Virus record (IMG/VR): IMGVR_UViG_3300017956_000007
Span: 1 to 64,000 of that record
Reading direction: 5' to 3' (one strand)
DNA length: 64,000 nucleotides
Origin: a virus
Under the pieces are notes generated by a model. The model did not search any database. It worked only from the letters and a program-made list of their open reading frames with translations, and was not told the origin of the DNA. Every line of letters begins with the position of its first letter. Position 1 is the stretch's first letter. Both the position numbers and the translations under genes were made by a program. Shown here one piece after another: positions 2,051-64,000 of the stretch.

Positions 2051-2404
2051 ATGACAACATCAATAAAAACACAAGGACAAAATTTAGTAATGTATCAAGG
2101 AGCTACATTTGAGCAAACATTTGTCGCAAAAGATAAAAATAGTTTAAACGTATCTTTATCTGCAGGAACTTGCATATCTCAAATGAGAAAAAATTACAGC
2201 ACATCTAATTCTTCTCATATTTTAACATTTTCCACAACAATTAATGACAGTGCTGTGACTATTTCAGCATCTGCTAGTGATACTACAAATATGGAACCTG
2301 GTTTATATTTTTATGATGTTGAATTTAGGCAATCCGATAATGTAACTGTTGAAAAAATTGTAAATGGTATGGTAAATGTTATTGGGGAATCAACAAAAAT
2401 TTAA
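2051..2404 (+). CDS. Small beta-sandwich (Ig-like / BppU-N-like) putative virion protein
   Basis: QGATFEQTF...SQMRKNY...T..MEPGLYFYDVE pattern, common in T4-like aquatic phages; has its own late promoter; stop overlaps the gp14 stop (TTAA). Confidence 0.65.
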   Translation: MTTSIKTQGQNLVMYQGATFEQTFVAKDKNSLNVSLSAGTCISQMRKNYSTSNSSHILTFSTTINDSAVTISASASDTTNMEPGLYFYDVEFRQSDNVTVEKIVNGMVNVIGESTKI

Positions 2405-48108: not shown

Positions 48109-48292
48109 AAATTTTAAAAAATTCTTTCAAAATAGGTTTTAACAAATCCCTGTCTTTTAGTATTTTACCGACATTATGACCACAATTTTGAATAGTCATT
48201 TTTTTAATATTATCACAATCCTCTATTAATGTCAATTGTTTTTGCTCATTAGAAGAGTCTCCATTAATAATTAAATATTCTGTTTTAATCAA
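48101..48292 (-). CDS. Small hypothetical protein
   Basis: 63-aa ORF with TTG start overlapping the clpP stop; fills the gap to gp33. Confidence 0.45.
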   Translation of the reverse strand: MIKTEYLIINGDSSNEQKQLTLIEDCDNIKKMTIQNCGHNVGKILKDRDLLKPILKEFFKIYD

Positions 48293-48933
48293 GATAATTC
48301 CTTGACCTCATCACAAATTCCATATTTCAATGCCTCATTTGAAGATAACCAAACATCGTGCGGAGGCAATAAAAATTTACGTATTTCATCATCATCAATG
48401 CCTGTACACTTTCTATAATGATTTAACATTCTTTCGGTTGTTAAATCATATTCTTTTTGTACAGCAAAAAGTTCATGCTCTTTACCAAAAGAACCCCAAG
48501 AATATTGATGAGATAAAATACTTGTATTCGGTGTTAATAGTCGTCTTCCTTTTTTCCCAGCCATAAAAATTGAAAGTGCGGCACTTCCTATAATACCAAG
48601 ACCGACTGTATGAATAGGAATAGAAGACCCTCTCATAACGTCAATCAAAGCAAAACCAGCCGTCATATCTCCTCCATGAGAATTTATGCACAATGTCAAA
48701 AATTCTGGTCTTGACGTTTTTTTCATATTATTGAGTAATACCCATTCAATCGCATGTAAAACCGAACCATTATAGATATCATCAAATAAAAAATAATATC
48801 CTCTATTTTCCAAAGATGCGCCATCATCCTCAACATTTTCTGATGGTGCATTTGCTATAAATTTCTCAGCAACTAACGTTGCAAATTCTGGATTTACTAA
48901 TGATTGTGCTATCTTATCTTCATTTATTTTCAT
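48289..48933 (-). CDS. clpP: ClpP-family serine protease
   Basis: LCINSHGG, ALIDVM, HTVGLGIIGSAA (Ser), SILSHQ (His), HDVWLS..EALKYGICD (Asp); the catalytic triad appears intact. Confidence 0.9.
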   Translation of the reverse strand: MKINEDKIAQSLVNPEFATLVAEKFIANAPSENVEDDGASLENRGYYFLFDDIYNGSVLHAIEWVLLNNMKKTSRPEFLTLCINSHGGDMTAGFALIDVMRGSSIPIHTVGLGIIGSAALSIFMAGKKGRRLLTPNTSILSHQYSWGSFGKEHELFAVQKEYDLTTERMLNHYRKCTGIDDDEIRKFLLPPHDVWLSSNEALKYGICDEVKELS

Positions 48934-51900
48934 ATTTTACCATTTGAATAATTTTATCAATTCCATCAAAAACCATCTCAGTAGAGATATTTTTTGTACA
49001 CTCAAACATTCTATCGGTTCCTTTATGATCCGGACACCAAAGCCAATCGCCTGGATCGAACTTATGTCTATTATAGCAACTATTGCAAGTTTTGTCATTA
49101 AAAATCCTAACACATTTTGTGGAAAATTCTGAATTAGGATTACTAAACCCAGAAATTAATAAAACGTGCTTATTCATAGACCATGCTAACCATGACAATC
49201 CTGACCCTAATCCTATGAAAAACTCAGATTTATTTATAGTCGCAATTGTCTGATTTAAAGTTCTATTATGTCTCGGTATAATACCATCTGGACAATAGTT
49301 AAAATATTCACCCTGTCCAAAAGAAGGATGTTTGTCAATACAAACCACATCATACCCCTTAGTCTTTACATATTCAACAACTTTATTCCAAGCACCAGGA
49401 TTATTCCAATATTTTGCCTGAGCAGTTGATTGCGTAGCAATTGCAACATAAGGTTTATTCAATTCGTATTCTTTTTCGTACACTGTAATTTTTGATGGTT
49501 TTTCCTTCCAATCCTTAAATCCTAAAATACTTGCGCACAATGTTTGCAATGGAACATCTTTACAATCGACTGGAGACAAATCACATTTTTCAAAAAATCC
49601 TATTCTATATTGATGGTCAAAATCTTTAAATCCTGAATTAGGTTTTTCAAATTTTATTTCAGGATATTCATTTTCGAATAATTCATTGAAAAAAGTGCTA
49701 CATATGACTTTACATTTATGTTTTTTTCTAAATGCTTCGACCGGTTCCATCCAAGCAATATTATCGCCTAATGCGGAAGAATCTAGCCAAATGAAAACTT
49801 TTTTATTTTCCATTTTCATATCATACACATGCACTAATTCTTCAGTTTTTTCATCAAAAATTTCAATTTTCCAAGGTATAAAATAAGATAATGTTGATGC
49901 GGCCCAACAATTGTTTCCTATTTTAGTTTGAAAATGTATATAATCAGTTTCTGAATCTTTGAAATTAATTTTAAAGTTTTTATCTACATTACCTTTTATA
50001 GACACATAAGGATTCGGGTTAACTGTTATATTATAATAAGATTTTTTTCTATCGTGTCTGTATTTACTAAAATCATGTTCACTAGCATTTTTCAAATCAT
50101 TTTGATATATGCTTATTAATCTTTCTCCCATATCCAATGGTATAGTTTGTTTCAATTCTTTTGCTCGGTAATAATATTTTTCTAAATTTAAAAAAATGTT
50201 ATCCCAATCTCTTTCCATAGCAAATTTTCTAGCATCTTTTGATGACTGGTCTAAATCATTCAAATGATGTAAAATACCCTCAACTATTGTATCCACACTT
50301 CTATCGCATTGATAAAAACCTGGTATTTTCATTTCATCTTGTAATGTTCCAACAACTGGCAATCCACATGCCATTCCTTCTAGTACACCTAAACAAGGTT
50401 GTCCAGTTTCCATTGATGCCGGATGTACAATAATATCTTGTTCGGATAAAATATCTCTTAGATCTTTTTTGAAAACATTGCCTAATAGATTTATTTCTAT
50501 GTCTTTTTTGCAATCGTTGTATATCTGATAAAAAACTTTATTGTAATCGTCATGTATAGAATCCGCTCCGACTATTGTTATAGGAAAGCCTAATTTATGG
50601 GCAGCCAAAATCGCTAAATGAAATCCTTTTCTATCGTCTCCCCCTCCAACACAAACCAATCTATTGCTTCTTTTTTTAGTATAATTGGGATAATAGAAAT
50701 TAGTATCAACTCCATGATGTAAATGAAATAATTTATCCTGAGCATCAAAATATGATATGAATTTATTGATAGGGGTTAAACTTAGAACAGAATTTTCAAT
50801 TGTAGATTTTATTTGGTTATATGAATAACTATATTTTTCCTGTAATCCTACCCACGCATCATGAACTGTATGAATAAACGGCACAAATTTATGTTTTAGT
50901 GAATCATTAAAATTAACCATATGATTATGAAAAACATCGTAATTTTCCAATTCCGTTTGTGTAATTTCACTTAACCACATCAATTTTACGTTATGTCCTC
51001 TTCTCTTACCGGCATTGATATATTGACCAACAACTTCCTCAACACCTCCATAACCTTTAGGAGGTATTTCTATACCGCATCCTGGATTTATTTGAATTAT
51101 ATTTAATTTTTCAAAATTATTATCATGAATTATACGTTCAAAGTTTTCGACAGGTAAATTTTCAATTTCGCTTTTTTTCTCAGATTCTGGTTCACTAATT
51201 ACCTCAACTATTTTCTTAATTTCTCCGTTTTTCGATCTTGTAATTAATGTGAACCTATTGTCTTTATTATACCAGTTAAAATGATAATTTAAATCCGTCA
51301 TCATACTAATAACATCAGATATTATGTCAATACCTGTTCTATTATTTTTCATTAAATGAGAATTATCACAAAAAATTACAATCTCACAGTTAAAACTCAA
51401 GTTATTTTCAATAGATTCTATAAATTTTGATATTTCTTCTACAGTATCTTCAAGATTTATTTTAATGAAAAAATAATCAACGTTTTTAACTCCATCGAAA
51501 AAAACATTGTGATCAAAAAATAATTTTTTCAATTTTTCTTTTTTAAGAATATCATATTTAAAATTTAAGAAACTAATATTTTTAGCTTGAATTTCATGAT
51601 TTAGATATGATATGTAAGTTGATTCCGCTGAATCATATATATCATCAAAATATTTTAAATTTCTAGGATATTCTAAAATAAAATTTTTTCTTCTTTCTTT
51701 AGCATCAATTGCTAATTGTGCCTCTCCTCTTGTATTCCAATTTCTGTAATTCTCGGAATCATTATGGTCTCTTGCCAAATAAGTAGTTCTTGGAATTGTA
51801 ATCCATTTACCTCTCTCTTCCATCATTAATAACCACTGTCCATCATTAGAAGAACATGCTTCTCCGTCTTTATGTACAGGAAATTTAATGCCTGGCAAAT

Positions 51901-52426
51901 TTCTAAAAATTCTTAAATATCCAAAAATATTTGTTCTATTTGGCCATAATTTTTCAAATCCTTCAAGAAAAGAATCATTATCGGTTGTCATAAAAACGTT
52001 ATCTTTGAAATTCGACAAAAAATCCTGATTAGATTTTATAGTAAAATTATCATAGTATTTGTTCGCATTAAAATGCATCAAAACACTCTCTGGAAACAAA
52101 TTAAAATAATAATTTATACGTTTTAACGTATTAGGCAATATAAAATCATCAGAATCAATGTGACAAACTATATCTCCAGTAGCGTGTGTCTGGGGATTCC
52201 ACCATATTTCTTTTTTATATTTTGGTTGTATAATTTTTATTCTATCATCTCTGAGACTGATATCATTGATAATTTCCAAAGTTTTATCATTAGAAAAATC
52301 ATCTGATATTAACCATTCCCAATTATCATAATTTTGACATAATATAGATTCTGCGGTTTCTCGTATATATTTTTCAGCATTAAAACATGAAGTTATTAAT
52401 GACAATTTCAATTCATCATACATCAA
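48920..52426 (-). CDS. Three-domain glycosyltransferase: GT2 + GT4-like + Aah/TibC-like autotransporter O-heptosyltransferase
   Basis: GT2: SCFNAEKYI, DDFSND, HIDSDD. GT4: PPKGYGGVE, HGVDTNFY, RKGFHL, LEGMACGLPVV. C-terminal: SSALGDNIAW, YVAIATQSTAQAKYWNNP, FFIGLGSGLSWLAW, CNSC...DWLWCPDHKGTDRMFECTK. ATG at 52423 is an alternative start. Confidence 0.88.
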   Translation of the reverse strand: MMYDELKLSLITSCFNAEKYIRETAESILCQNYDNWEWLISDDFSNDKTLEIINDISLRDDRIKIIQPKYKKEIWWNPQTHATGDIVCHIDSDDFILPNTLKRINYYFNLFPESVLMHFNANKYYDNFTIKSNQDFLSNFKDNVFMTTDNDSFLEGFEKLWPNRTNIFGYLRIFRNLPGIKFPVHKDGEACSSNDGQWLLMMEERGKWITIPRTTYLARDHNDSENYRNWNTRGEAQLAIDAKERRKNFILEYPRNLKYFDDIYDSAESTYISYLNHEIQAKNISFLNFKYDILKKEKLKKLFFDHNVFFDGVKNVDYFFIKINLEDTVEEISKFIESIENNLSFNCEIVIFCDNSHLMKNNRTGIDIISDVISMMTDLNYHFNWYNKDNRFTLITRSKNGEIKKIVEVISEPESEKKSEIENLPVENFERIIHDNNFEKLNIIQINPGCGIEIPPKGYGGVEEVVGQYINAGKRRGHNVKLMWLSEITQTELENYDVFHNHMVNFNDSLKHKFVPFIHTVHDAWVGLQEKYSYSYNQIKSTIENSVLSLTPINKFISYFDAQDKLFHLHHGVDTNFYYPNYTKKRSNRLVCVGGGDDRKGFHLAILAAHKLGFPITIVGADSIHDDYNKVFYQIYNDCKKDIEINLLGNVFKKDLRDILSEQDIIVHPASMETGQPCLGVLEGMACGLPVVGTLQDEMKIPGFYQCDRSVDTIVEGILHHLNDLDQSSKDARKFAMERDWDNIFLNLEKYYYRAKELKQTIPLDMGERLISIYQNDLKNASEHDFSKYRHDRKKSYYNITVNPNPYVSIKGNVDKNFKINFKDSETDYIHFQTKIGNNCWAASTLSYFIPWKIEIFDEKTEELVHVYDMKMENKKVFIWLDSSALGDNIAWMEPVEAFRKKHKCKVICSTFFNELFENEYPEIKFEKPNSGFKDFDHQYRIGFFEKCDLSPVDCKDVPLQTLCASILGFKDWKEKPSKITVYEKEYELNKPYVAIATQSTAQAKYWNNPGAWNKVVEYVKTKGYDVVCIDKHPSFGQGEYFNYCPDGIIPRHNRTLNQTIATINKSEFFIGLGSGLSWLAWSMNKHVLLISGFSNPNSEFSTKCVRIFNDKTCNSCYNRHKFDPGDWLWCPDHKGTDRMFECTKNISTEMVFDGIDKIIQMVKYENK

Positions 52427-53449
52427 TTACCTTTTAAAATAAATTGTAGTTGTTTTTTTAATATTATTGACTAATGTTTGATCATTTAAATCAAAAGTTT
52501 TTATCAACTCATCATTCATAAAAATTTCTATCAATTGACCTTTATTAAATTTAACTAGATTATAAAAACCTTTCATAAAAAATGAATCCGATACTATTTG
52601 ATTATCTACAACTATTTTCATTTTCATATCAATAAAATGATTTAAATGAAATATATAATCTTCTTCATTATCACCTATATAAAGTGCCACCCAAGGTTTT
52701 GTTTCTTCTATGTGCATCCTATCTTGTTCAAATTGTATTCGATTCAAATTAGGAACAAAATCGATTAATTCCACATTTGAATTTTTTTCATCATTGTATT
52801 TTGTCAATCCCAAAACATAAGCAAAAAACTCCTCACCTGGTAAGAATTGATACTTCAAAGTTATTTCTTTTTGAACTTCTAAATCCAAATACTTCATAAA
52901 GCGTTCATACATATAATCTACGTTTCCGGACATCAATCTTGTAGTAACTTGCATTTTGCCGTGAGTGTCGGAATTGTCTTCACTGGACCAATAATAAAAA
53001 ACACCATCTAATTTTTTAGATAATATCTTATATTCATTCATAATCAATTCATGTGGACTTTTAATAAGACCATCATAATCCATGATATGAATAATTTTTT
53101 TTCTTAAAATTTTTGCATAATTAATACCCAAAGTTAATAATCTGTAAACCGCAAAAGTTGTATTGTGACCATGAAATTGTTTTGTTGATAAATCAAACCC
53201 ATCTGTGTAATACGTTATATAACCTAAATATTCTGGATCTTTTAACACAATATTGTCTTTATCATAAACAAAATAATCAACTTTTTCCTGAATTTCTTTT
53301 GACACCGGTGTATGGGTAGTTAATATTATTTCATAATTAAAATATTTTATATTATTAATCAACTCTAAACAACATTTTATTCTCTCAGGAGTTGAAAGAT
53401 GGGCATGAATTAATACAATAGAATCAGAGGACATATGTGATGTCTCCAT
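52427..53449 (-). CDS. Hypothetical, possibly divergent GT-A-fold protein
   Basis: IILTTHTPVS.EIQ..VDYFVYDKDN and a DxD-like HIMDYD; lies between two GT genes. Start may be the ATG at 53434. Confidence 0.5.
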   Translation of the reverse strand: METSHMSSDSIVLIHAHLSTPERIKCCLELINNIKYFNYEIILTTHTPVSKEIQEKVDYFVYDKDNIVLKDPEYLGYITYYTDGFDLSTKQFHGHNTTFAVYRLLTLGINYAKILRKKIIHIMDYDGLIKSPHELIMNEYKILSKKLDGVFYYWSSEDNSDTHGKMQVTTRLMSGNVDYMYERFMKYLDLEVQKEITLKYQFLPGEEFFAYVLGLTKYNDEKNSNVELIDFVPNLNRIQFEQDRMHIEETKPWVALYIGDNEEDYIFHLNHFIDMKMKIVVDNQIVSDSFFMKGFYNLVKFNKGQLIEIFMNDELIKTFDLNDQTLVNNIKKTTTIYFKR

Positions 53450-56099: not shown

Positions 56100-56141
56100 G
56101 AATCCACCTTTACATATTTTAATTTTTATACAGATATATAT

Positions 56142-56170
56142 ACTATAGTATATATTTAATAATTTGTCAA
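56142..56170 (-). promoter_or_regulatory. Sigma70-type (early) promoter TTGACA-N17-TATAGT
   Basis: tgtcaa at 56165-56170 and actata at 56142-56147 on the + strand, with a 17-nt spacer; points into the 56099 GT gene. Confidence 0.75.
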
Positions 56171-56182
56171 TGAAAAAGGATT

Positions 56183-57484
56183 TTGATGCCGAGACCTTTA
56201 GTATATAAAGAAAATACTAGTGGAACTGAATTTGGTCTATATGAACTTACCGATAGCCAATTAGAACTACTATCATATCTAGTTAGAGCTAGATATGCGG
56301 AAAAATTAGCAGATATCAGTAGTACAACCAGTGGAATAAGAGGACAAATCTATCTCAAAACATTTTCAAATTCGGCCCCTAGACGAGGAACAACATCGGA
56401 CTATTTTTCGGGGAGTTTTAGAGACTCTAGAAGAGATTATGCTTTATCAGGAAATTTGTCTGCCTCTGACGATAGACTTGGGTCTGATTTATTTAGTGGA
56501 CCATCGTCAGCAGCACAACTAACTGTAGAAGATGTGCCTGGTGCAACATTAACCGATAATAAACTGATTTCTAATTTTGGTCCTGCACCCTCTGCTGTAC
56601 CAAGTTATACTACTGGAGGATACACATTTACACCAAGAAGTTATGACAGTTATATGTTATATCAAAGAAGCGCACAAGAATTAACGCCTTCTGATGCAGA
56701 TACAAATGAAAATGGGTTTTTAATTTATACATCAAGAAGTCTTAAACCTGCAGGGAAAGATAGATCTGTCATAACAGAATTACTCTCAGATTGTTACACC
56801 CAAATGAAAACGGGAGATGGAGTTGGAACATATTATGTTGATAAGAGTACAGCAACAAAACCTGGGGGACAAACAAATGGAACCTTCGTAAACATGGGAA
56901 CATTTTTTATCGATACAAGATCACAAGTCAGTAGTGTAACAACAACTTCCATGACTATTGATGCGGATGGATACCCTAGAGGTAAAAACTATGGTTCTGT
57001 TGTAGAACAGCACAATTTACCTAATATGTCATATGCTTGGGGTGTTGTTGTTACATATAATTATTGGGTAAAAACAGAAGATACTGCTTTTGATGTTTCG
57101 GGGGGAACAAAACAATTTAGTAATTTAATGTTTTTAAAAAATGATGGTCATAAATTATTAAGAAAAGATAGAACTTCAACTTCTGCCCCAACAAGTACTT
57201 CTGATTTGAAGACTAAATATGGAGTATTTATGGATATGATAGATAAAGTAATAATTCCTCAATTTGCTAACGGATCTGATTTACCAACTTATTACAAAAC
57301 AAATAATAATCCTCCATCCCCTGCTTCGAAAATAAGAGGAACTATAGAAGATACATATTATGCAGGAACAAATACTTATTTGTACAGATCAACTTCAGGA
57401 TTAACATATAAGAGACTTGATATTCCAAAAATAGACAACAACAATGTCTTTACAACAACTATGTATTGGTATATTAATAATTAA
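56183..57484 (+). CDS. Ser/Thr/Gly-rich hypothetical protein A1 (paralog of 58291..59322), possibly virion-associated
   Basis: Shares RPL, L..LSY.VR..YA..L, SDC......DGVG.Y and GT.VNMG....DT with A2. ATG at 56186, after AAGGA, is the likely start. Confidence 0.6.
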   Translation: MMPRPLVYKENTSGTEFGLYELTDSQLELLSYLVRARYAEKLADISSTTSGIRGQIYLKTFSNSAPRRGTTSDYFSGSFRDSRRDYALSGNLSASDDRLGSDLFSGPSSAAQLTVEDVPGATLTDNKLISNFGPAPSAVPSYTTGGYTFTPRSYDSYMLYQRSAQELTPSDADTNENGFLIYTSRSLKPAGKDRSVITELLSDCYTQMKTGDGVGTYYVDKSTATKPGGQTNGTFVNMGTFFIDTRSQVSSVTTTSMTIDADGYPRGKNYGSVVEQHNLPNMSYAWGVVVTYNYWVKTEDTAFDVSGGTKQFSNLMFLKNDGHKLLRKDRTSTSAPTSTSDLKTKYGVFMDMIDKVIIPQFANGSDLPTYYKTNNNPPSPASKIRGTIEDTYYAGTNTYLYRSTSGLTYKRLDIPKIDNNNVFTTTMYWYINN

Positions 57485-57502
57485 ATTATTTAAGGTAAAA
57501 TA

Positions 57503-58288
57503 ATGGAAAACACTGATAATGTTGTAATATCAACAATTGAAACTTCAAACGATGAAATTATTGCAAATAATGAATCCGTAAATGTGTATATTCAAGAGAG
57601 TGATAGTGCTAGTGATAGTACGATAGAAAATCCTGAATATTTCTCAAATGAAACTGATGAATCCTCCATAACTGATATTTCATCAGAAACAGAATTAGAA
57701 AGTGATGAATCGGTAAATGAATTAGATGAGGAAATTGAAGAGGAAGAAATAGAATTATTTACAATAAATGGCGTTACGTTAACTAACAAAATGCATGATC
57801 CTTGTCCAGAATTTAGACCGATATATGCACATTTTAATGATGAAAAAAATACGGTGGTTAGAATATTTTTCATTAGTCTAGATGAAAATGAAAAAGGAGA
57901 AACATATTGGTCAAAGTTGCAAAATGGTTTATTTTCTTATCAAAAACCCATACCCGAAATACAGAAACTTTCAATATTTTTCAGTGAACAAGACTTAATT
58001 GACAATCACAATAAACTAATATATGATGATTTAGAATTTCAAAGAGAAGTTTTTAATTACATGGAATGGAAAGCTACAGGATTATCAGGATCCGAAGAAA
58101 AAATTACTTTAAATAACATTAAACAATTAAGTTCAGAAGCACTTTTTAAAATAAAATTAGAATTATTTGAAGAAGCCGTCATTCAAGAATGCGAAAGTGT
58201 TGAATTAAGAGCCAATTTGAGAAAATCAAATAATTTAATAGAATTGTTTTATCATTATCAAACTATTTTAAATCAAAGTAAAGAATAA
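57503..58288 (+). CDS. Acidic hypothetical protein B1 (paralog of 59334..59864)
   Basis: Acidic low-complexity N-terminus; C-terminal LFKIKLELFE...ELRANLRKSNNLIELFYHY. Confidence 0.6.
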   Translation: MENTDNVVISTIETSNDEIIANNESVNVYIQESDSASDSTIENPEYFSNETDESSITDISSETELESDESVNELDEEIEEEEIELFTINGVTLTNKMHDPCPEFRPIYAHFNDEKNTVVRIFFISLDENEKGETYWSKLQNGLFSYQKPIPEIQKLSIFFSEQDLIDNHNKLIYDDLEFQREVFNYMEWKATGLSGSEEKITLNNIKQLSSEALFKIKLELFEEAVIQECESVELRANLRKSNNLIELFYHYQTILNQSKE

Positions 58289-58290
58289 AA

Positions 58291-59322
58291 ATGGCAACAA
58301 ATAGACCTTTAAGATTTGATGAAACGGTCAAATCATTTAGACAAATGAGTGATGCAGAATTAGATATTTTGAGTTATGTTGTAAGAAAAAAATATGCACA
58401 ATTATTGAGTAGCGGTACCGCTACCATTGGAGGAAAAATTTCTCCGGGCACATCTGCTTCTAATTATTCCTCATTAGGATCAGTAACAGATACAAAAACC
58501 TTACAATATACTGCTACTAACGCAGACAGTCCAACTGGTGGTGCAGATAACATATTTCCAACAACATTAAATTCATCATATCATCAAGAAACTGAAACGA
58601 TTTATAATTATAGACAATATATACCTTCAATCAATTTATCCTCATCAACACTTAATTCTTACAGTTATCTTGTTTATGATCAAAATACAAAAACTTTTAA
58701 AATTGAAGGTGACATTTCCAATATATTCGACACTATCGTAAGTGATTGTGTGAACAAAATACATGATCCTAACAGTGATGGTGTCGGATCATATCATTTT
58801 GGTTTATCCTCTCCAACGACAGGAACATACGTAAATATGGGAATGATATATCAAGATACGACATATTGGAATAGTACAGTACAATTTAATCATTATATTA
58901 AAACGGCTGCCGATAATGAAAACGATATACTAAACGATGCCAGTGCATATAAATATATATCAAGATACATAGGAATTGTTGATGGCAGTGTTAAAATATC
59001 AGAAATACCAATAAATGATATCACAGAAAATATAGTAGTTGATATACTAGAAAAAATATTGGAAAAAAGATTTCCAAAATACACATTAACAAGAGTAGGA
59101 AGCACAGATTCAACAACAACTGCTACCACAACAATGGCAGGCTACACCTCAAATAATTTTGGTTTTTTACATGAAAGATTTGTATTTTCTTCATATACCG
59201 TAGTATCCACTTCTGGTGTATCAGGAGGAACTTACACAGCAAACTATCAACCAGATAACAATAGTTATAGATATAATGTATGGGCATTGACTGCCAATGG
59301 TTATAATACAACTGATTTATAA
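58291..59322 (+). CDS. Ser/Thr-rich hypothetical protein A2 (paralog of 56183..57484)
   Basis: MATNRPLRF...MSDAELDILSYVVRKKYAQLL, SDCVNKIH....DGVGSY, GTYVNMGMIYQDT. Confidence 0.6.
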   Translation: MATNRPLRFDETVKSFRQMSDAELDILSYVVRKKYAQLLSSGTATIGGKISPGTSASNYSSLGSVTDTKTLQYTATNADSPTGGADNIFPTTLNSSYHQETETIYNYRQYIPSINLSSSTLNSYSYLVYDQNTKTFKIEGDISNIFDTIVSDCVNKIHDPNSDGVGSYHFGLSSPTTGTYVNMGMIYQDTTYWNSTVQFNHYIKTAADNENDILNDASAYKYISRYIGIVDGSVKISEIPINDITENIVVDILEKILEKRFPKYTLTRVGSTDSTTTATTTMAGYTSNNFGFLHERFVFSSYTVVSTSGVSGGTYTANYQPDNNSYRYNVWALTANGYNTTDL

Positions 59323-59333
59323 AAAGGAACATT

Positions 59334-59864
59334 ATGTTAATTGATGTCGATAATATTGAAATATTAAATGCTACATTTCCTAATTTGACCTCTAGAAATT
59401 TAATAATGGTTGATTATTCCGACATAAATGGCGAAAGAAAAAGTATGGTCATAGGTTCTGATGATGATTCGGATTTTGGTTTAAAAGTTTTTGATAAATT
59501 TAATCTATCTACGATTGAAAACAATACAAAATTACTACACGAAGAAAACAAAAAGCAGGCTAAAAATTTTTTACAATTTTTAGAATGGAAAGAAAGTGGA
59601 TTAATTAAAACTATAGATGATGATGAAGAAAAAATAATTGAAGAAAAAATTTCAGAAATACAGCCTCAGGAAATAACTTTAGATTTTTTAGAGAATTTGG
59701 ACAATGAAAATTTATTCAAATTAAAGTTGAGTATTTTTGACATCGAAGAATTTCAAGATATTGATGATAGAGAATTGAGATCACAAGTTAGAAAATCAAA
59801 AAATTTACCAGAATTAATGCATTATTATCACATCTTTAAAATTAATCAAAATTCAAATAATTAG
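59334..59864 (+). CDS. Acidic hypothetical protein B2 (paralog of 57503..58288)
   Basis: FLEWK..GL, LFKLKLSIFD...ELRSQVRKSKNLPELMHYY. Confidence 0.6.
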   Translation: MLIDVDNIEILNATFPNLTSRNLIMVDYSDINGERKSMVIGSDDDSDFGLKVFDKFNLSTIENNTKLLHEENKKQAKNFLQFLEWKESGLIKTIDDDEEKIIEEKISEIQPQEITLDFLENLDNENLFKLKLSIFDIEEFQDIDDRELRSQVRKSKNLPELMHYYHIFKINQNSNN

Positions 59865-60540
59865 GGTCAAATTTATTAATAATGGTTGAATCAAATTTTG
59901 CGTTCATAAAATGAACTATTTTTATATCATCATTAAAACATCCATCTAAATACAACCAACCGGATGGATGTTTCGTATTTAAGTAATAATACATCATTCT
60001 ATCGTAAGAATCGTTTTTTAATTCAAATTTCATATCATATCTCACAAACCAACTATCTGGTAAAAATTTTAATTTTAATTTTTTTCTAGCAAATGTTTCA
60101 ACAAAAAATTGTTCACCATTAACATCCCCAGTTGTTATTTTATTTTCTAAAAAATATTTCATCCAAAAATCAGGTTTTTTCATAAATTCATCATAAATAT
60201 ATTTACAATCTTTTGGATAATATTTTTGAAAACCTCCATTTAAATTATACTGACCAACATCTGTATCTTTCCACCAAGAATTGGCGGTTAAAAATTCTCC
60301 TCTTTCAATGGGATATAAAATAGCATCCATATAATTGTTTATAAAAAGCATATCAATATCAATAACTAATACCGGGTCATCAATATTTAAATTCATTATT
60401 TTCAACTTATTCCATTGTAATTTTAACCCATCGGATTCTTCCCTGATCCAATTTACATTTGGTATTTTAGAATTAATATAATTTTCAACATCCTGACCGT
60501 ATTTTGAACCAATCCTTATTGCAAATATTTTAGGAATCAC
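59842..60540 (-). CDS. Short GT-A-fold glycosyltransferase-like protein
   Basis: RIGSKYG, WNKL, VIDID (DxD), WW, NGG, GEQ.F, KIVHF. Confidence 0.7.
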   Translation of the reverse strand: MIPKIFAIRIGSKYGQDVENYINSKIPNVNWIREESDGLKLQWNKLKIMNLNIDDPVLVIDIDMLFINNYMDAILYPIERGEFLTANSWWKDTDVGQYNLNGGFQKYYPKDCKYIYDEFMKKPDFWMKYFLENKITTGDVNGEQFFVETFARKKLKLKFLPDSWFVRYDMKFELKNDSYDRMMYYYLNTKHPSGWLYLDGCFNDDIKIVHFMNAKFDSTIINKFDPNYLNFD

Positions 60541-60979
60541 AAACCCATCCTACCAATGAATATCTAATACCAGATTTTAAAACATTAACTCTATGATCAA
60601 GTTTAGAATTAAAACTGACACAATCTCCTTTTAATAATTTTATAATACCAACGTTTTTTATCTCAAATTCACCTCCTGCAAATTCATCATTTAATAGAAC
60701 CGTAAAACTCTCAATTCTATTAAAATTTCCATCAGTTTTAAAATCAGAATGCCAATTGTAAAATTGATTTTTAGTATATTGTGTAAATTGAAACAACATT
60801 TTTTTACGATTGAATTTTTTCTCTAATTCTAAATCATTTTTCCATATATAAACTCTAGAAATTCTAGTTGAAAAATCGAAAGAATTTTTTCCAACAGCAG
60901 CAGGAACTACTTTTTTTCGATACGTTAGAATCATATCAAAACATTCTTCATCAGTAAAAAAATTTTTAATAATTTTCAT
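60530..60979 (-). CDS. 2OG-Fe(II) oxygenase (prolyl-hydroxylase-like)
   Basis: HxD (WHSD), LLNDEFAGGEF, distal His (DHRV), RYSLVGW. Confidence 0.88.
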   Translation of the reverse strand: MKIIKNFFTDEECFDMILTYRKKVVPAAVGKNSFDFSTRISRVYIWKNDLELEKKFNRKKMLFQFTQYTKNQFYNWHSDFKTDGNFNRIESFTVLLNDEFAGGEFEIKNVGIIKLLKGDCVSFNSKLDHRVNVLKSGIRYSLVGWVCDS

Positions 60980-61529
60980 TTAAAATATATTCCTTTACCC
61001 ATTCACATTCTCTCATATGTTCATATGATTGGTTGAAAAGACATACTGAATAATCTTTTTCATTTCTATCAAACATCCAAGACCAGCAAACTTTATCATA
61101 AGTTTCGTATTTTATTTCTTTATAAATATACTCATCAATACCTTTCCAATATTTGACTCTGCTATAATCTTCATCTTCATAAAATTTATTATAAATATAT
61201 GATTGATCACCATACCATGACATAATTGAAGAATTTAAAGGAGTGTGAGCTGGTTCACGCCACCATGCATATAATAGTGTAAAATTATTTCTAACTAAAT
61301 GTGAAATATCACCTTTAATAACAACATCTAAATCAAAATACAAATATTGTTCTTGATTTTTAAACTCATTGAACAACTGTAACTTATCATATACCGATCC
61401 TTCACCATCAACGATACCTCTTACATCTATTAAATCACAGTTGACACAGTGATTATACAACATATATTTAAGATTGTCAATCCACCAAGAAGAATATTTT
61501 GTGCCTGTACACACATAAAGAATTACCAC
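60966..61529 (-). CDS. Short GT-A-fold glycosyltransferase-like protein
   Basis: VCTGTKY, KLQLF, YFDLDVVI (DxD), WW, LNSSIMSW, GIDEYI, VCLFN. Confidence 0.72.
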   Translation of the reverse strand: MVILYVCTGTKYSSWWIDNLKYMLYNHCVNCDLIDVRGIVDGEGSVYDKLQLFNEFKNQEQYLYFDLDVVIKGDISHLVRNNFTLLYAWWREPAHTPLNSSIMSWYGDQSYIYNKFYEDEDYSRVKYWKGIDEYIYKEIKYETYDKVCWSWMFDRNEKDYSVCLFNQSYEHMRECEWVKEYILNENY

Positions 61530-62152
61530 TGACCTATCACCATAAATCTAGTGTAATTGTCCATTTTTTTACTACCAGAATAAAAAACTTTTTTGATATT
61601 ATTTTTTTCAATCAATTCTTCGGCAGAATTTACGCAATTTACATGTTCTACTAAATCATAATAATCATTAGATTGTAGGACTAATATTGGGGGTTCTGGA
61701 TAATCTTTGTAGTAAGGCTTCATTCTTACAACATCTTCCATATGTTCAGATGATGTATTAACAATCAAATGTCTTCTCCTCAATTCTTTTCTCTCAAAAT
61801 AATCATCGAAGACTTTTACTTTAAAATTTAGATTAAAATAATTAGTGTATTGCACTAAAATTTTTTTATTAATTTCATCCAATTCATAAAAATCCAAGCT
61901 TTCTATGTCAATTACATAATCTAACATTTCAATTAAAGGAAAACCAAACCAACCGCCAATAATTTCAACATGAACGGGATATAAAAAATCATATGAAATA
62001 TTTAATTTTTCTATCAGCCATGTTTTAGATTCAAATTGACCATCAGATAATGAATCTTCTAATTTATCAAAATAATTCGGATAATTATTTAAAACAAAAT
62101 TCTTCACTTTAAAATATGGAGAATTTACGTAGTTATTAATCTTTAAGTTCAT
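61523..62152 (-). CDS. Class I SAM-dependent methyltransferase-like protein
   Basis: GQFESKTWL, Gly-rich IIGGWFG, YELD, IVNTSSEHM, LQSNDY...HVNCV, RFMVIG. Confidence 0.65.
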   Translation of the reverse strand: MNLKINNYVNSPYFKVKNFVLNNYPNYFDKLEDSLSDGQFESKTWLIEKLNISYDFLYPVHVEIIGGWFGFPLIEMLDYVIDIESLDFYELDEINKKILVQYTNYFNLNFKVKVFDDYFERKELRRRHLIVNTSSEHMEDVVRMKPYYKDYPEPPILVLQSNDYYDLVEHVNCVNSAEELIEKNNIKKVFYSGSKKMDNYTRFMVIGQW

Positions 62153-62751
62153 AGATTATCTCCGCAAACCATATAATAATTTAATACCTTCTGATCGTAT
62201 TCACGAATCATTTGCCAATTCGTTTCGTAATAAACGTTTTTTATTTTATTTTGCCTAATCAATTGTTTTGTAGAATTTATAGGATTGCAAATATGTAAAC
62301 CATCATCGTTATTACCAACCAATATAAATTTTCCTTTATATACTCTACCTATAGGATAAGTATATTCACAGTACTTTTGTAAAAAATTTCCTGTTAAATT
62401 TAATTCGTCAAAAATAACATCGCAATGAAAACTGTTTTTAGTTAATATTTCATTCGACTCATGAACAGCATAATCAAAATCAAAAAAATTAAATTTTTGC
62501 ATATCAAATTTTAATTTTTTTATATAATTCAAATCTATGTCACAAAACCAACTACACATTACATTAAAATTATCTTCAAGTAAATCAAAATTAGAGAAAA
62601 TATAATCGTATATTTTTAGATTTAAATTCAAATGTGTTTTTCTATTATATCTAATTCGAATATAATCATAATTTTTGTCCAATCTCATAGGAAAAGGAAC
62701 TCCAAATGATTCATATTTATCACGCAATTTAGTATATTCATGCTTTTTCAT
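62149..62751 (-). CDS. Divergent paralog of the adjacent methyltransferase-like protein
   Basis: VMCSWFC, FDFD, CDVIFD, YCEYTYP, LVGNND..HICNPI..QLI.QNKI, YYMVCG align by eye with the neighbour's motifs. Confidence 0.5.
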   Translation of the reverse strand: MKKHEYTKLRDKYESFGVPFPMRLDKNYDYIRIRYNRKTHLNLNLKIYDYIFSNFDLLEDNFNVMCSWFCDIDLNYIKKLKFDMQKFNFFDFDYAVHESNEILTKNSFHCDVIFDELNLTGNFLQKYCEYTYPIGRVYKGKFILVGNNDDGLHICNPINSTKQLIRQNKIKNVYYETNWQMIREYDQKVLNYYMVCGDNL

Positions 62752-63493
62752 ATTTCATCCATAAATCTTTTGCCCACCCTGTTGCTTCATGTAATTCTAT
62801 TTGTGTTTCGTTTTTTCTAGCCCATGCTTTATGAGATGTGTTGAATAGGCATATTTTATATTTCTCACGGTATTCTTTTGGTGATAAATCATCAGGAAAT
62901 CTAGCTCCAATATTATAATTGTAAATAATACCTTTATCCCAAAGATTTATTAAATTTTTTCTGTAGAACTGATAAAAAACAAATTTATCCAAAGACGGAT
63001 ACATAAAAAACGCTTTTTCTTCATGTTTGACTAAAAATTCATATAAATTGTACCCAACATCATCTTGCCACGCCACAAATGAAGAATTTAAAGGTGTAGT
63101 CATAAAGGAATAATTTTTAATATGAGACATTGGATCTCTCCAATAATTCATAATAAATCTAGGCTTATCATGTTCCATATCAATTAAATTTGTGATATCA
63201 CTTTGAATTAAAATATCCAAATCAAACCATGCTTTTTTGCCAGCAACATTTTTAAAATCATAAAAAAAACACATTTTTTCAGAAGTAAAAATTCTTTTTC
63301 TGGTATGTCTTAAAAATCTTGTAGGTAAAGGTAAAATTTTAATATCAGGGTCTAAAAATTCTGAATTATCAGTTAAACAATGAAAATTAAAATTTTTTTT
63401 ATAATTTATTTTTAAAGAATTAAATAATCTATTAACATATTCTGGACCATATTTTAAGCCCCATTTTAAACAATAAAAATTAGTCATTTCCAT
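62738..63493 (-). CDS. Short GT-A-fold glycosyltransferase-like protein
   Basis: CLKWGLKYGPEYVNRL, FHCLTD, WFDLDILI (DxD), LNSSFVAW, ICLFN. Confidence 0.75.
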   Translation of the reverse strand: MEMTNFYCLKWGLKYGPEYVNRLFNSLKINYKKNFNFHCLTDNSEFLDPDIKILPLPTRFLRHTRKRIFTSEKMCFFYDFKNVAGKKAWFDLDILIQSDITNLIDMEHDKPRFIMNYWRDPMSHIKNYSFMTTPLNSSFVAWQDDVGYNLYEFLVKHEEKAFFMYPSLDKFVFYQFYRKNLINLWDKGIIYNYNIGARFPDDLSPKEYREKYKICLFNTSHKAWARKNETQIELHEATGWAKDLWMKYEKA

Positions 63494-63999
63494 TGATCTC
63501 CATAAGCATCAAACCCATTTCCACATTTTTGTGCGCATATTTCTGCTTTCCCTTCTTTACAAGAAGATAAACTCCATGATTTTTCAATTTTTTTAAAAAA
63601 ATCTCCGTCAATTATTTTTCTCAACGGAACATTTTTCGCATTAATTTTTTCCAAATCTTCAATAAAATTCCATATTTGATCTTCGCCTATTTTCTGATAT
63701 GTTTTATACAATCTACCCGCAGTCCAACAACAAGGAAAAATTAAACCTTCAGCGGATATATAAATTTCTTTATTTAAAATTGATTTACAAGATATTACAG
63801 TATTGTCTAAATAATTTTGAAAACTGCCAAATTTTGTTATCAGATCATCATAAGTATTAACACTTTTATTTTGATAATTTTGATTCGATGGAGGTTTAAT
63901 ATAATTTCCTTTATTCGTTTCTTTTTCTGATATTTTATTTTTTGTTTGTACCCATCTACCACTTTTTTTCTTTATAAACTGAAGACCAAATAGTTTAGC
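63484..63999 (-). CDS. Radical SAM protein, C-terminal SPASM/twitch-like region (5' part outside window)
   Basis: The frame is open from the window end: AKLFGLQFIKKKSGRW...ISCKS...IYISAEGLIFPCCW...SC....EICAQKCG. The ORF track shows only the last 75 aa, and the CxxxCxxC motif is not in the window. Confidence 0.7.
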   Translation of the reverse strand, partial: AKLFGLQFIKKKSGRWVQTKNKISEKETNKGNYIKPPSNQNYQNKSVNTYDDLITKFGSFQNYLDNTVISCKSILNKEIYISAEGLIFPCCWTAGRLYKTYQKIGEDQIWNFIEDLEKINAKNVPLRKIIDGDFFKKIEKSWSLSSCKEGKAEICAQKCGNGFDAYGDQWK

Positions 64000-64000
64000 C

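What the first reader, a model, noticed from the sequence alone, without database searches (positions are those of the whole stretch)
48920..64000. Candidate undescribed system: >15-kb glycan/protein-modification island with putative substrates at its centre
Seen: two minus-strand enzyme clusters. The left has the multi-domain GTs, FkbM and the heptosyltransferase. The right has three short GTs, two MTase-like genes, a 2OG oxygenase and a radical SAM/SPASM gene, and continues past the window. They bracket a plus-strand duplicated pair of S/T-rich proteins with acidic partners. Known: virion glycosylation is established for some actinobacteriophages and giant viruses, and oxygenase + GT pairs also hypermodify phage DNA. 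Inference: a dedicated pathway for glycosylating virion appendages or remodelling the host surface in a T4-like phage. The true acceptor cannot be read from sequence, and I cannot verify novelty without a search.
Basis: partly seen in the sequence, partly recalled or inferred. Interest (0 to 1): 0.8.

Follow-up and report, generated by a model that had tools for sequence, protein, structure and literature searches.

The report
Phage fibre-protein glycosylation island
An uncultured marine T4-like phage carries a large block of soluble sugar-adding and methyl-adding enzymes around two copies of a new fibre-like protein and its acidic partner. It most likely sugar-coats the phage's own tail appendages, but no sugar has been observed on any of these proteins.

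Summary
At 48920-64000 two minus-strand enzyme clusters flank a plus-strand A1-B1-A2-B2 duplication, and the island continues at least 20 kb past the window.

- **Enzymes.** The "heptosyltransferase" is a close relative of TibC, the E. coli enzyme that puts heptose on serines of adhesins (E 1e-65). Its catalytic Asp and four iron-finger Cys are kept; the adenine-contact Arg is Thr. One "MTase-like" gene has a class I methyltransferase fold. The three short GTs are paralogs with a DxD motif and weak GT8 likeness.
- **A and B.** A is an unnamed family. Its confident model (pLDDT 89.6) matches no known fold.
- **Co-occurrence.** In 49 viral contigs found through A, B follows A in 42 and the short GTs lie nearby in 38. 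In two of three syntenic layouts, A-B follows fibre-like genes.
- **Fibre link.** In unrelated phages TibC-like genes lie beside tail fibres with 34-43% Ser+Thr.
- **Location.** All island enzymes in the window lack membrane segments.

Best reading (about 0.5): cytoplasmic O-glycosylation of virion appendage proteins. A is the likeliest acceptor. Host-envelope remodelling is not excluded.

Such islands are published as the pelagimyophage "host recognition cluster". This scan has reported similar cassettes on other DNA.

The parts
48920..52426 (-). 1168-aa triple glycosyltransferase: GT2 domain (nt ~52016-52402), GT4/GT1 GT-B domain (nt ~50216-50947) and C-terminal TibC/BAHT-type domain (nt ~48950-49969)
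   Evidence: Pfam. TibC of PDB 4rb4/4rap matches at E 1.5e-64 over residues 820-1159. D888, T1001, K1005, W1079 and C1114/C1117/C1131/C1143 correspond to TibC D110, T226, K230, W305 and the four iron-finger Cys. T1060 replaces R286 and G1074 replaces P300.
52427..53449 (-). 340-aa protein 'X340' of unknown fold, a recurrent partner of the TibC-like domain
   Evidence: No Pfam, PHROG, NCBIfam or PDB hit. It is adjacent to or fused with the BAHT domain in the T4-like lineage and in unrelated phage lineages.
53424..56099 (-). 891-aa GT1 (GT-B) plus FkbM methyltransferase fusion
   Evidence: Pfam Glycos_transf_1 E 1.4e-9 (aa 166-289) and Methyltransf_21 E 1.9e-15 (aa 467-639). Found in 14 of the A-seeded loci. 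A GT1+FkbM protein also lies near a BAHT gene in unrelated locus L198.
56186..57484 (+). A1, member of a new unnamed protein family (432 aa from the ATG; the ORF listing starts one codon earlier, at a TTG)
   Evidence: Paralog of A2. The family has 42 cluster representatives among 1.84 billion. Ser+Thr 23%. No TM-like segment.
57503..58288 (+). B1, acidic partner (261 aa, net charge -38) with the conserved C-terminal helical motif of the B family
58291..59322 (+). A2 (343 aa). The model shows three tandem beta-beta-alpha-beta-beta-beta units with no known fold match
   Evidence: AF2 pLDDT 89.6, pTM 0.88. Foldseek against PDB and BFVD gave nothing at E <= 1e-3. Best VIA-align Z was 3.4, to beta-prism domains.
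59334..59864 (+). B2, acidic partner (176 aa). Its 3' end overlaps the convergent GT gene by 23 nt
59842..60540 (-). Short GT-A-like protein 1 (232 aa), DxD at 61-63
   Evidence: One family with the 187- and 251-aa genes; 101 members in 38 loci. DxD is invariant. Residue numbers.
60530..60979 (-). 149-aa 2OG-Fe(II) oxygenase of the prolyl-4-hydroxylase-like Oxy_3 type, HxD at 77-79
   Evidence: Pfam PF13640 E 1.8e-13. Present in 10 related loci, always inside the cassette. Residue numbers.
60966..61529 (-). Short GT-A-like protein 2 (187 aa), DxD at 66-68
   Evidence: Pfam GT8 E 0.0023, below the cut-off. Family as above.
61523..62152 (-). M209, class I SAM-dependent methyltransferase fold
   Evidence: AF2 pLDDT 94.1. 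Foldseek probability 1.0, E 1e-7, to DnrK, MmcR, Coq5 and NRMT2. At least 549 related loci in IMG/VR.
62149..62751 (-). M200, remote paralog of the C-terminal half of M209, possibly non-catalytic
   Evidence: hhalign probability 87.6%, E 3.5e-6 over 84 columns. Present in 20 loci.
62738..63493 (-). Short GT-A-like protein 3 (251 aa), DxD at 91-93
   Evidence: PHROG glycosyltransferase E 1.5e-4. Atlas feature score 0.98 to viral nucleotide-diphospho-sugar transferase clusters.
63484..64000 (-). C-terminal 171 aa of a 344-aa radical SAM/SPASM enzyme. It is the first of about 13 radical SAM genes that run to contig position ~81.7 kb
   Evidence: Pfam on the complete ORF gives Radical_SAM E 1e-8. 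SPASM is weak at E 0.0066. The CxxxCxxC motif is at residues 18-25.

Best explanation
The island is a phage-encoded cytoplasmic protein-glycosylation and tailoring system. Its target is a virion appendage protein.

**Shown**
- It combines two separately mobile modules. In other phages both lie in or beside tail-fibre operons.
- Module 1 is a TibC/BAHT-type O-glycosyltransferase toolkit: GT2-GT4-BAHT in one polypeptide, X340, and GT1-FkbM.
- Module 2 is a convergent cassette. A and B face three GT8-like GT-A paralogs, a class I methyltransferase and its half-paralog.
- This lineage adds a prolyl-hydroxylase-like oxygenase and a long radical SAM array.

**Inferred**
- A is made alongside the fibre proteins. 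It is a Ser/Thr-rich, beta-rich protein with three pseudo-repeats.
- B is strongly acidic and has a conserved C-terminal helical motif. It acts as A's chaperone or as an adaptor to the enzymes.
- The BAHT domain puts a first sugar on Ser/Thr hydroxyls of the folded acceptor. The sugar is a heptose or a related NDP-sugar. The nucleotide is uncertain because the adenine-contact Arg is Thr.
- The fused and neighbouring GT domains extend the glycan. FkbM and M209 methylate it.
- The oxygenase may create extra hydroxyl acceptors. The radical SAM enzymes may edit the sugars or residues.
- The decorated A is mounted on the fibres or baseplate, or the fibres themselves are decorated. This changes adsorption, stability or recognition.
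For: 1. **TibC-type identity.** The match is E 1e-65 over nearly the whole enzyme. The catalytic Asp, T226, K230, W305 and all four iron-finger Cys are kept. No LPS heptosyltransferase structure matched at E <= 1e-3. Characterised BAHTs act on proteins in the cytoplasm (PMC4358343).
2. **Co-occurrence from A.** In 49 A-seeded viral loci B follows A in 42. The short GTs occur in 38, M209 in 32 and M200 in 20. The layout is always A,B convergent with the GT/MT genes.
3. **Co-occurrence from M209.** Of 79 M209-seeded loci, 35 have A+B+sGT. Ten more have B plus sGT, in most cases with an ORF in A's place that the profile missed.
4. **Fibre context of A-B.** A,B sit on the same strand at the downstream end of runs of fibre-like genes in two independent syntenic contexts. 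Neighbours hit tail fibre, baseplate-fibre connector and virion structural PHROGs. A's composition matches fibre-like proteins rather than enzymes.
5. **BAHT-seeded search.** There are 399 viral loci. In the T4-like lineage, 19 of the 80 retained loci carry A and/or B in the flanks. In 23 loci of other lineages (some on 216-248-kb contigs) A/B are absent. There the BAHT gene lies within a few genes of an ORF with 34-43% Ser+Thr in 10 of 23 loci. The four tested are confirmed tail fibres.
6. **Soluble enzymes.** No island protein in the finding's coordinates (48920-64000) has a TM-like segment. No flippase, polymerase, ligase or polyprenyl-phosphate GT was seen.
7. **Composition rank.** A1 and A2 are the most Ser/Thr-rich proteins on the contig.
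Against: - No glycan has been seen on any of these proteins. All evidence is association.
- A has no low-complexity Ser/Thr tracts like the fibres next to BAHT genes elsewhere. Its Ser/Thr is spread evenly over core and loops.
- In this phage the island lies next to gp32 and replication-type genes, about 30 kb from the big fibre genes.
- The short GT plus M209 genes occur without A/B in some lineages, for example L067-L075 and L080-L087. BAHT occurs without A/B in others. Neither enzyme set strictly needs A.
- R286 of TibC is Thr, P300 is Gly and the thumb-tip residues differ. Donor and oligomeric state may therefore differ.
- No heptose-nucleotide synthesis gene was found on this contig or on three related records. 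All are fragments, with CheckV completeness of 23-39%.
- The GT8 assignment of the short GTs is weak.
Confidence: 0.5

Rival explanations
1. Host envelope remodelling. The GTs and methyltransferases alter the host's LPS core or O-chain, or glycosylate host surface proteins, during infection. This blocks superinfection or keeps progeny from sticking to debris. A/B are the matching receptor-binding tip and its chaperone. They are linked to the enzymes because receptor and receptor-masking specificities must be inherited together.
For: - This is the published reading for the GT8-rich 'host recognition cluster' of pelagimyophages (PMC7029224) and for cyanomyophage GT clusters (PMC12801897).
- GT8, GT9, GT2, GT4 and FkbM families all occur in LPS pathways (family knowledge).
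- A's weak beta-prism likeness (Z 3.4), variable loops and position behind fibre genes fit a receptor-binding protein.
- The short GT/M209 genes occur without A/B in some lineages.
Against: - The GT9 domain is TibC-type (E 1e-65), not WaaC/WaaF-type.
- No membrane-bound component was found: no Gtr-type protein, flippase, ligase or polymerase.
- In unrelated phages BAHT genes sit beside hyper-Ser/Thr tail fibres rather than with envelope genes.
Confidence: 0.25
2. A glycosylated small molecule or peptide product. The GTs, methyltransferases, oxygenase, about 13 radical SAM enzymes, the aminotransferase-like gene and the TctA transporter form a biosynthetic gene cluster for a tailored metabolite or a ribosomal-peptide-like product. 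A/B are structural passengers.
For: - The radical SAM/SPASM array, an SDR-like fragment, an aminotransferase-like gene and a transporter lie in the same minus-strand block.
- M209's nearest folds are natural-product O-methyltransferases such as DnrK and MmcR.
- The cultured relative Mosig has carbamoyltransferase, aminotransferase, epimerase and MoaA-like genes in the same island.
Against: - The strictly conserved core across lineages is A, B, short GTs and M209. The radical SAM genes are variable add-ons (PMC7029224).
- No precursor peptide, NRPS/PKS or sugar-nucleotide pathway was identified.
- The BAHT family is protein-directed (PMC4358343).
Confidence: 0.12
3. DNA hypermodification. The oxygenase and GTs modify phage DNA bases to evade restriction.
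For: - Oxygenase plus GT pairs hypermodify DNA in some phages, and T4 glucosylates hmC (general knowledge).
- GTs in cyanophages have been proposed to do this (PMC12801897).
Against: - The oxygenase is the prolyl-hydroxylase-like Oxy_3 type; no other Pfam family hit it, TET/JBP included.
- The GTs hit GT2, GT1/GT4, GT9 and GT8 models, not the T4 alpha- or beta-glucosyltransferase families.
- The cassette is tied to fibre operons.
- No base-hydroxymethylase was seen in the 84 kb.
Confidence: 0.03

Closest known systems
TibC-TibA and Aah-AIDA-I of E. coli (bacterial autotransporter heptosyltransferases, BAHT; PDB 4RAP/4RB4; PMC4358343)
   Same: - The C-terminal 340 residues of the 1168-aa protein align with almost all of TibC.
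- The catalytic Asp, T226, K230, W305 and the four-Cys iron finger are kept.
- The protein is soluble and cytoplasmic.
- It is encoded next to a Ser/Thr-rich, beta-rich candidate acceptor.
   Different: - It is phage-encoded and fused behind GT2 and GT4 domains.
- R286 (adenine contact) is Thr, P300 (heptose stereoselector) is Gly, and the thumb-tip residues differ.
- The candidate acceptor is not an autotransporter beta-helix.
- Donor sugar and oligomeric state are unknown.
Host recognition cluster of pelagimyophages and cyanomyophages (Zaragoza-Solas et al. 2020, PMC7029224)
   Same: - It is a hypervariable island of a marine T4-like phage with GT8-like GTs, radical SAM cassettes and transport genes.
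- Related loci (types 1 and 2) lie among the tail-fibre genes.
- The cultured pelagimyophage Mosig carries A, B, short GTs and M209 next to VrlC.
   Different: - Here the island sits beside gp32, not between VrlC and gp14.
- The paper does not describe the A/B families, the conserved convergent cassette or a TibC-type enzyme.
- The paper reads the GTs as host O-chain modification.
Virion glycosylation of mycobacteriophages (Freeman et al. 2023, cited in PMC12801897; from my own knowledge of that paper)
   Same: Phage-encoded GTs near structural genes decorate the phage's own virion proteins with O-linked glycans in the cytoplasm.
   Different: - The hosts are Actinobacteria.
- The acceptors are capsid and tail-tube C-termini.
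- The GT families differ.
- There is no BAHT, no A/B pair and no radical SAM array.
Skp1 hydroxyproline glycosylation (prolyl 4-hydroxylase plus GT8/GT77-type transferases; PDB 6mw5)
   Same: - A prolyl-hydroxylase-like 2OG oxygenase sits between GT8-like genes.
- The Skp1 alpha-galactosyltransferase ties for best PDB profile hit of the short GTs (E 0.02).
   Different: - The similarity is weak.
- No target proline is identified.
- That pathway is eukaryotic.

Membership tests
BAHT (TibC/Aah protein O-heptosyltransferases) | Full-length sequence homology to the TibC catalytic core, closer than to LPS heptosyltransferases | tested here: met
   phmmer E 1.5e-64 and 222 bits over query 820-1159 and TibC 43-386. 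No WaaC/WaaF chain matched at E <= 1e-3. Pfam Glyco_transf_9 E 1.4e-6; TibC_1st is weak.
BAHT (TibC/Aah protein O-heptosyltransferases) | Catalytic base Asp-110 and beta-phosphate/heptose contacts Thr-226, Lys-230, Trp-305 | tested here: met
   D888, T1001, K1005 and W1079 align with them. They are invariant in nine phage homologs.
BAHT (TibC/Aah protein O-heptosyltransferases) | Arg-286 contact to adenine N1, which specifies an ADP-activated donor | tested here: not met
   The aligned residue is T1060. It is an invariant Thr in the phage lineage. The donor nucleotide is therefore uncertain.
BAHT (TibC/Aah protein O-heptosyltransferases) | Four-cysteine iron finger (C339, C342, C358, C370) | tested here: met
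   C1114, C1117, C1131 and C1143 align with them.
BAHT (TibC/Aah protein O-heptosyltransferases) | Beta-hairpin thumb and dodecameric ring | tested here: inconclusive
   The hairpin region aligns, but the tip residues F265/V266 are E/Y. The oligomeric state cannot be tested with these tools.
BAHT (TibC/Aah protein O-heptosyltransferases) | Transfers heptose to Ser of a protein acceptor encoded nearby | not testable with these tools
   Only association is available. A is adjacent here, and Ser/Thr-rich tail fibres are adjacent in other phages.
GT8 (retaining GT-A glycosyltransferases), for the three short GTs | Score above the Pfam PF01501 gathering cut-off | tested here: not met
   Only 2 of 54 family members match, at E 0.001-0.002 and below the cut-off. 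The PDB profile hits to glycogenin and Skp1 GalT are at E 0.02.
GT8 (retaining GT-A glycosyltransferases), for the three short GTs | DxD metal/nucleotide-sugar motif after a beta-strand | tested here: met
   D91 and D93 are invariant in 54 sequences. DxD is present in all three window paralogs. Atlas feature scores are 0.94-0.98 to GT8/Nucleotid_trans clusters. The fold itself was not modelled.
Class I SAM-dependent methyltransferases (M209) | Rossmann-like seven-strand methyltransferase fold | tested here: met
   AF2 pLDDT 94.1. Foldseek probability 1.0, E about 1e-7 and TM 0.53-0.63 to many methyltransferases. No Pfam model matches by sequence.
Pelagimyophage host recognition cluster | Location between VrlC and gp14 among tail-fibre genes | tested here: not met
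   In this window the island follows gp32 and two small conserved genes. Related type 1 and type 2 loci and phage Mosig do lie among the fibre genes.
Pelagimyophage host recognition cluster | Content: GT8-type GTs, radical SAM cassettes, transport genes | tested here: met
Radical SAM/SPASM (gene at 63484-64518) | CxxxCxxC cluster motif and a C-terminal auxiliary-cluster domain | tested here: inconclusive
   Radical_SAM E 1e-8 and CxxxCxxC at residues 18-25. SPASM is only E 0.0066, below the cut-off.

The most novel reading that the evidence does not exclude
A is the founding member of a new fold family of phage tail-appendage proteins. These proteins are built to be hypermodified. A TibC-type enzyme starts O-glycans on them. 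GT8-like enzymes, possibly acting on hydroxyproline made by the adjacent oxygenase, extend them. Methyltransferases and a swappable radical SAM array edit them. This would give marine T4-like phages a programmable, horizontally exchanged glycan coat on their receptor-binding organelles. No such virion glycosylation system has been described for phages of Gram-negative marine bacteria.
Probability: 0.22. Interest if true: 0.8.

Novelty: new variant of a known kind. Interest (0 to 1): 0.55.

Why it matters
Sugar-coated tail appendages would change how adsorption, host range and decay of abundant ocean viruses are understood. They would also reassign a large class of 'LPS-related auxiliary metabolic genes' from host manipulation to virion maturation.

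It would also extend the TibC/Aah family from bacterial adhesins to viruses. I found at least 399 viral loci with this domain.

The A family has a confident model that matches no known fold. The conserved A-B/GT/MT cassette gives concrete targets. Cultured phages carry each module: Pelagibacter phage Mosig has the cassette and Microcystis phage Mel-JY01 has the TibC-like fusion. The question is therefore testable now.

Tried and rejected
- **Whole-region DNA search.** megablast of the region against GenBank phages found nothing.
- **A and B against isolates.** tblastn of A2, B2 and a type-2 A against phage isolates found nothing. Only the family profile finds the Mosig homologs.
- **A1 alone.**
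  - The word-indexed 5.8-billion-protein search found only A1 itself.
  - The viral-contig scan with A1 alone found nothing.
  - The 35-sequence alignment was too diverse for the search for related loci.
- **No family or sequence hits.**
  - Pfam and PHROGs gave nothing for A or B.
  - Pfam, PHROGs and NCBIfam gave nothing for X340 or M200; the short GTs got only the weak Pfam and PHROG hits cited above and no NCBIfam hit.
  - PDB profile searches gave nothing for A, B or X340.
  - PDB sequence searches gave nothing for the 891-aa protein or for two radical SAM proteins.
- **Fold searches for A.** Foldseek against PDB and BFVD gave no match at E <= 1e-3. VIA-align gave Z <= 3.4, too weak to name a fold.
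- **X340 as a fourth short-GT paralog** was rejected (hhalign probability 0.1%).
- **T4 late-promoter motif TATAAATA.** There were 9 matches against 19 expected and none upstream of A1, so expression timing could not be read.
- **Heptose-nucleotide synthesis genes.** CTP_transf_like and SIS_2 were absent from this contig, and CTP_transf_like was absent from three related fragments. This is uninformative because all are under 40% complete.
- **Ser/Thr-rich acceptor loops in A.** There is no enrichment in inserts compared with the core.
- **Not done.** I made no models of B or the short GTs because the two structure predictions went to A and M209. I did no read mapping.

Full report
**What the window is.** The window is the first 64 kb of an 84,465-base IMG/VR virus record with a CheckV completeness estimate of 34%. 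PHROG hits to gp13, gp14, gp6, gp5, gp48/54-like tube-cap proteins and gp32 show a T4-like myophage. Its gp6 is only about 40% identical to those of Pelagibacter phages Mosig and HTVC008M. G+C is 25-33%.

**Checking the observation.** The gene layout is as described.
- The left minus-strand cluster holds three genes:
  - a 1168-aa protein with GT2, GT1/GT4 and GT9 domains;
  - a 340-aa protein with no family hit (X340);
  - an 891-aa GT1 plus FkbM fusion.
- The centre holds A1, B1, A2 and B2 on the plus strand.
  - The duplication is real but old. A1/A2 share 24% identity (E 9e-10) and B1/B2 share 35% (E 1e-13).
  - A1 and A2 have 23-25% Ser+Thr, the highest on the contig. B1 and B2 are very acidic.
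- The right minus-strand cluster holds:
  - three paralogous short proteins with an invariant DxD;
  - an Oxy_3-type 2OG oxygenase;
  - a 209-aa and a 200-aa gene;
  - a radical SAM/SPASM gene that runs off the window.
- Beyond the window there are about 12 more radical SAM genes. A plus-strand trio containing a TctA transporter interrupts them. An SDR-like fragment and an aminotransferase-like gene lie near the contig end.

**The heptosyltransferase is TibC-type.**
- Residues 820-1159 of the 1168-aa protein match TibC (PDB 4rb4/4rap) at E 1.5e-64 over TibC residues 43-386. No LPS heptosyltransferase structure reached E 1e-3.
- I mapped the alignment onto the residues named in the TibC structure paper (PMC4358343).
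  - D888 matches the catalytic base D110.
  - T1001, K1005 and W1079 match T226, K230 and W305.
  - C1114, C1117, C1131 and C1143 match the iron finger.
- Three features differ.
  - R286, which contacts adenine N1, is T1060. This Thr is invariant in nine phage homologs.
  - The stereoselector P300 is Gly.
  - The thumb-tip residues differ.
- I therefore treat it as a true BAHT relative whose donor sugar-nucleotide and oligomeric state are open.

**The other enzymes.**
- M209 has no Pfam hit. It folds with pLDDT 94 into a class I SAM methyltransferase (Foldseek probability 1.0).
- M200 is a remote paralog of only the C-terminal half of M209.
- The short GTs have weak GT8 likeness. Their fold was not modelled.
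- X340 matches nothing known and is not a paralog of the short GTs.
- No protein within the finding's coordinates (48920-64000) has a membrane-like segment. Elsewhere on the contig, TctA has ten and four other ORFs have one each: the 214-aa ORF just upstream, a 277-aa ORF at 64711-65544, and the ORF after TctA.

**A and B.**
- A profile of A1+A2 found 42 cluster representatives among 1.84 billion proteins. None of the ten looked up carries an informative name.
- With a 70-sequence alignment A2 folds confidently (pLDDT 89.6, pTM 0.88). The model has three tandem beta-beta-alpha-beta-beta-beta units.
- Foldseek against PDB and BFVD finds nothing at E <= 1e-3. The best VIA-align score is Z 3.4, to beta-prism domains of MACPF and MABP proteins. 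That is too weak to claim a shared fold.
- B proteins share a C-terminal helical motif of roughly 45 residues. It is duplicated in the window's lineage. Their N-terminal parts are variable and acidic.

- Seeding with A gave 49 viral loci. Clustering their ORFs showed:
  - B in 42 loci;
  - the short GT family in 38 loci (101 proteins);
  - M209 in 32 and M200 in 20;
  - the 1168-aa family in 15, the 891-aa family in 14, X340 in 12 and the oxygenase in 10.
- The layout is always A,B on one strand and the GT/MT genes convergent on the other. It occurs in three syntenic contexts:
  - after baseplate and long-fibre genes;
  - after gp14, gp15 and two fibre-like genes;
  - next to gp32, as here.
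- Neighbours just upstream of A in the first two contexts hit tail-fibre, fibre-connector and virion-structural PHROGs.
- Seeding the other way with M209 gave at least 549 loci. Among the best 79:
  - 35 have A+B+sGT;
  - 10 more have B plus sGT, in most cases with an ORF in A's place that the profile missed;
  - some lineages truly lack A/B.
- The genes are strongly but not absolutely linked.

**The TibC-like module in other phages.**
- Seeding with the BAHT domain gave 399 viral loci. Two groups appear among the 80 retained loci.
- Loci L132-L188 belong to the window's lineage.
  - Nineteen carry A and/or B in the flanks.
  - The other loci of that lineage are mostly short contigs.
  - L133 has the same A-B-A-B arrangement as the window.
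- Loci L189-L211 come from other phages, some on 216-248-kb contigs.
  - They lack A, B, short GTs and M209.
  - Their BAHT domain is again fused or adjacent to X340, GT4, GT2 and methyltransferase domains.
  - In 10 of these 23 loci it lies within a few genes of an ORF with 34-43% Ser+Thr. The four tested hit tail-fibre PHROGs at E down to 1e-122.
- This is the phage counterpart of tibC lying next to tibA.

**Interpretation.**
- Two separately mobile modules are both tied to fibre genes elsewhere. Here they flank the most Ser/Thr-rich proteins of the contig.
- All the enzymes are soluble, and the lead enzyme belongs to a protein-directed family.
- I read the island as a cytoplasmic system that glycosylates and methylates virion appendage proteins. 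A is the likeliest acceptor and B its chaperone or adaptor (confidence about 0.5).
- The steps from 'associated' to 'modifies' are inference.
- Against this reading:
  - A has no low-complexity acceptor tracts.
  - Both enzyme sets occur without A in some lineages.
  - The donor sugar is uncertain.
  - Here the island is far from the big fibre genes.
- The main rival is the published reading, host envelope remodelling. A/B would then be a linked receptor-binding tip (0.25).
- A metabolite-type product (0.12) and DNA modification (0.03) are less likely.

**What is known already.**
- GT8 glycosyltransferases, rfaE, radical SAM cassettes and transport genes in the pelagimyophage 'host recognition cluster' are published (PMC7029224).
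- Virion glycosylation is established for mycobacteriophages (cited in PMC12801897).
- I found no paper on phage TibC-like enzymes or tail-fibre glycosylation.
- This scan has already reported TibC-like/fibre cassettes and GT/MT/radical SAM islands on other phage DNA. My searches reached the same pattern independently.
- New here:
  - the definition and confident model of family A, which matches no known fold;
  - the fold assignment of M209;
  - the two-way co-occurrence counts;
  - the recurrent BAHT-X340 partnership;
  - the Arg-to-Thr change in the donor site.

**Cultured handles.**
- Pelagibacter phage Mosig carries A (Mosig_00097, E 6e-14), B (Mosig_00095), two short GTs and M209 next to VrlC.
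- Microcystis phage Mel-JY01 carries a BAHT+X340 fusion beside a structural gene.
- Ralstonia phage RsoM2USA has an M209 homolog.

Noticed in passing
contig 63484-81714 (L001:3484-20000 and L002:1-3714), beyond the window: About 13 radical SAM genes lie in one minus-strand block, several with SPASM or 4Fe-4S auxiliary domains. Two of them have no relative in the PDB by sequence. In related loci radical SAM genes are variable add-ons to the conserved cassette.
   Followed up: partly
contig 67945-70921 (L001:7945-10921), plus strand: A phage-borne TctA tricarboxylate-transporter subunit (Pfam E 8e-92, ten TM-like segments) is flanked by a 169-aa ORF and a 339-aa ORF with an N-terminal hydrophobic segment. 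The trio may be a TctB/TctA/TctC-like set. It lies inside the radical SAM array.
   Followed up: no
window 52427-53449 and loci L191, L193, L195, L201, L204, L207, L003: The unknown X340 domain is adjacent to the TibC-like domain in this lineage and fused to it in unrelated phages, including Microcystis phage Mel-JY01. This recurrent partnership suggests a joint function.
   Followed up: partly
window 48289-48933, minus strand: A 214-aa ORF overlaps the stop region of the 1168-aa gene by 14 nt and has one TM-like segment. An ORF of the same size and position occurs in the nearest relatives L132-L138. No function was found.
   Followed up: no
L192:2542-6234: A 1231-aa protein lies next to a TibC-like gene in an unrelated viral contig. 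It has an N-terminal cytidylyltransferase-like domain and an intein/HINT domain. Mel-JY01 also has a cytidylyltransferase-like gene near its TibC-like gene. These may be sugar-nucleotide synthesis genes.
   Followed up: no
window 2401-4917, minus strand: The gp14 neck protein is 838 aa. Its C-terminal two thirds hit tail-fibre, baseplate and virion-structural PHROGs, so the neck protein carries a fibre-like extension.
   Followed up: no
whole window: The T4 late-promoter core TATAAATA is under-represented: 9 matches against 19 expected from shuffles.
   Followed up: no
L212 (Pelagibacter phage Mosig, record 58764-77315): The cultured phage's version of the island also holds genes annotated as carbamoyltransferase, two aminotransferases, nitroreductase-domain proteins, MoaA-like radical SAM enzymes, an Asp/Arg hydroxylase-domain protein and an epimerase. 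The epimerase gene lies between the A and B homologs.
   Followed up: partly
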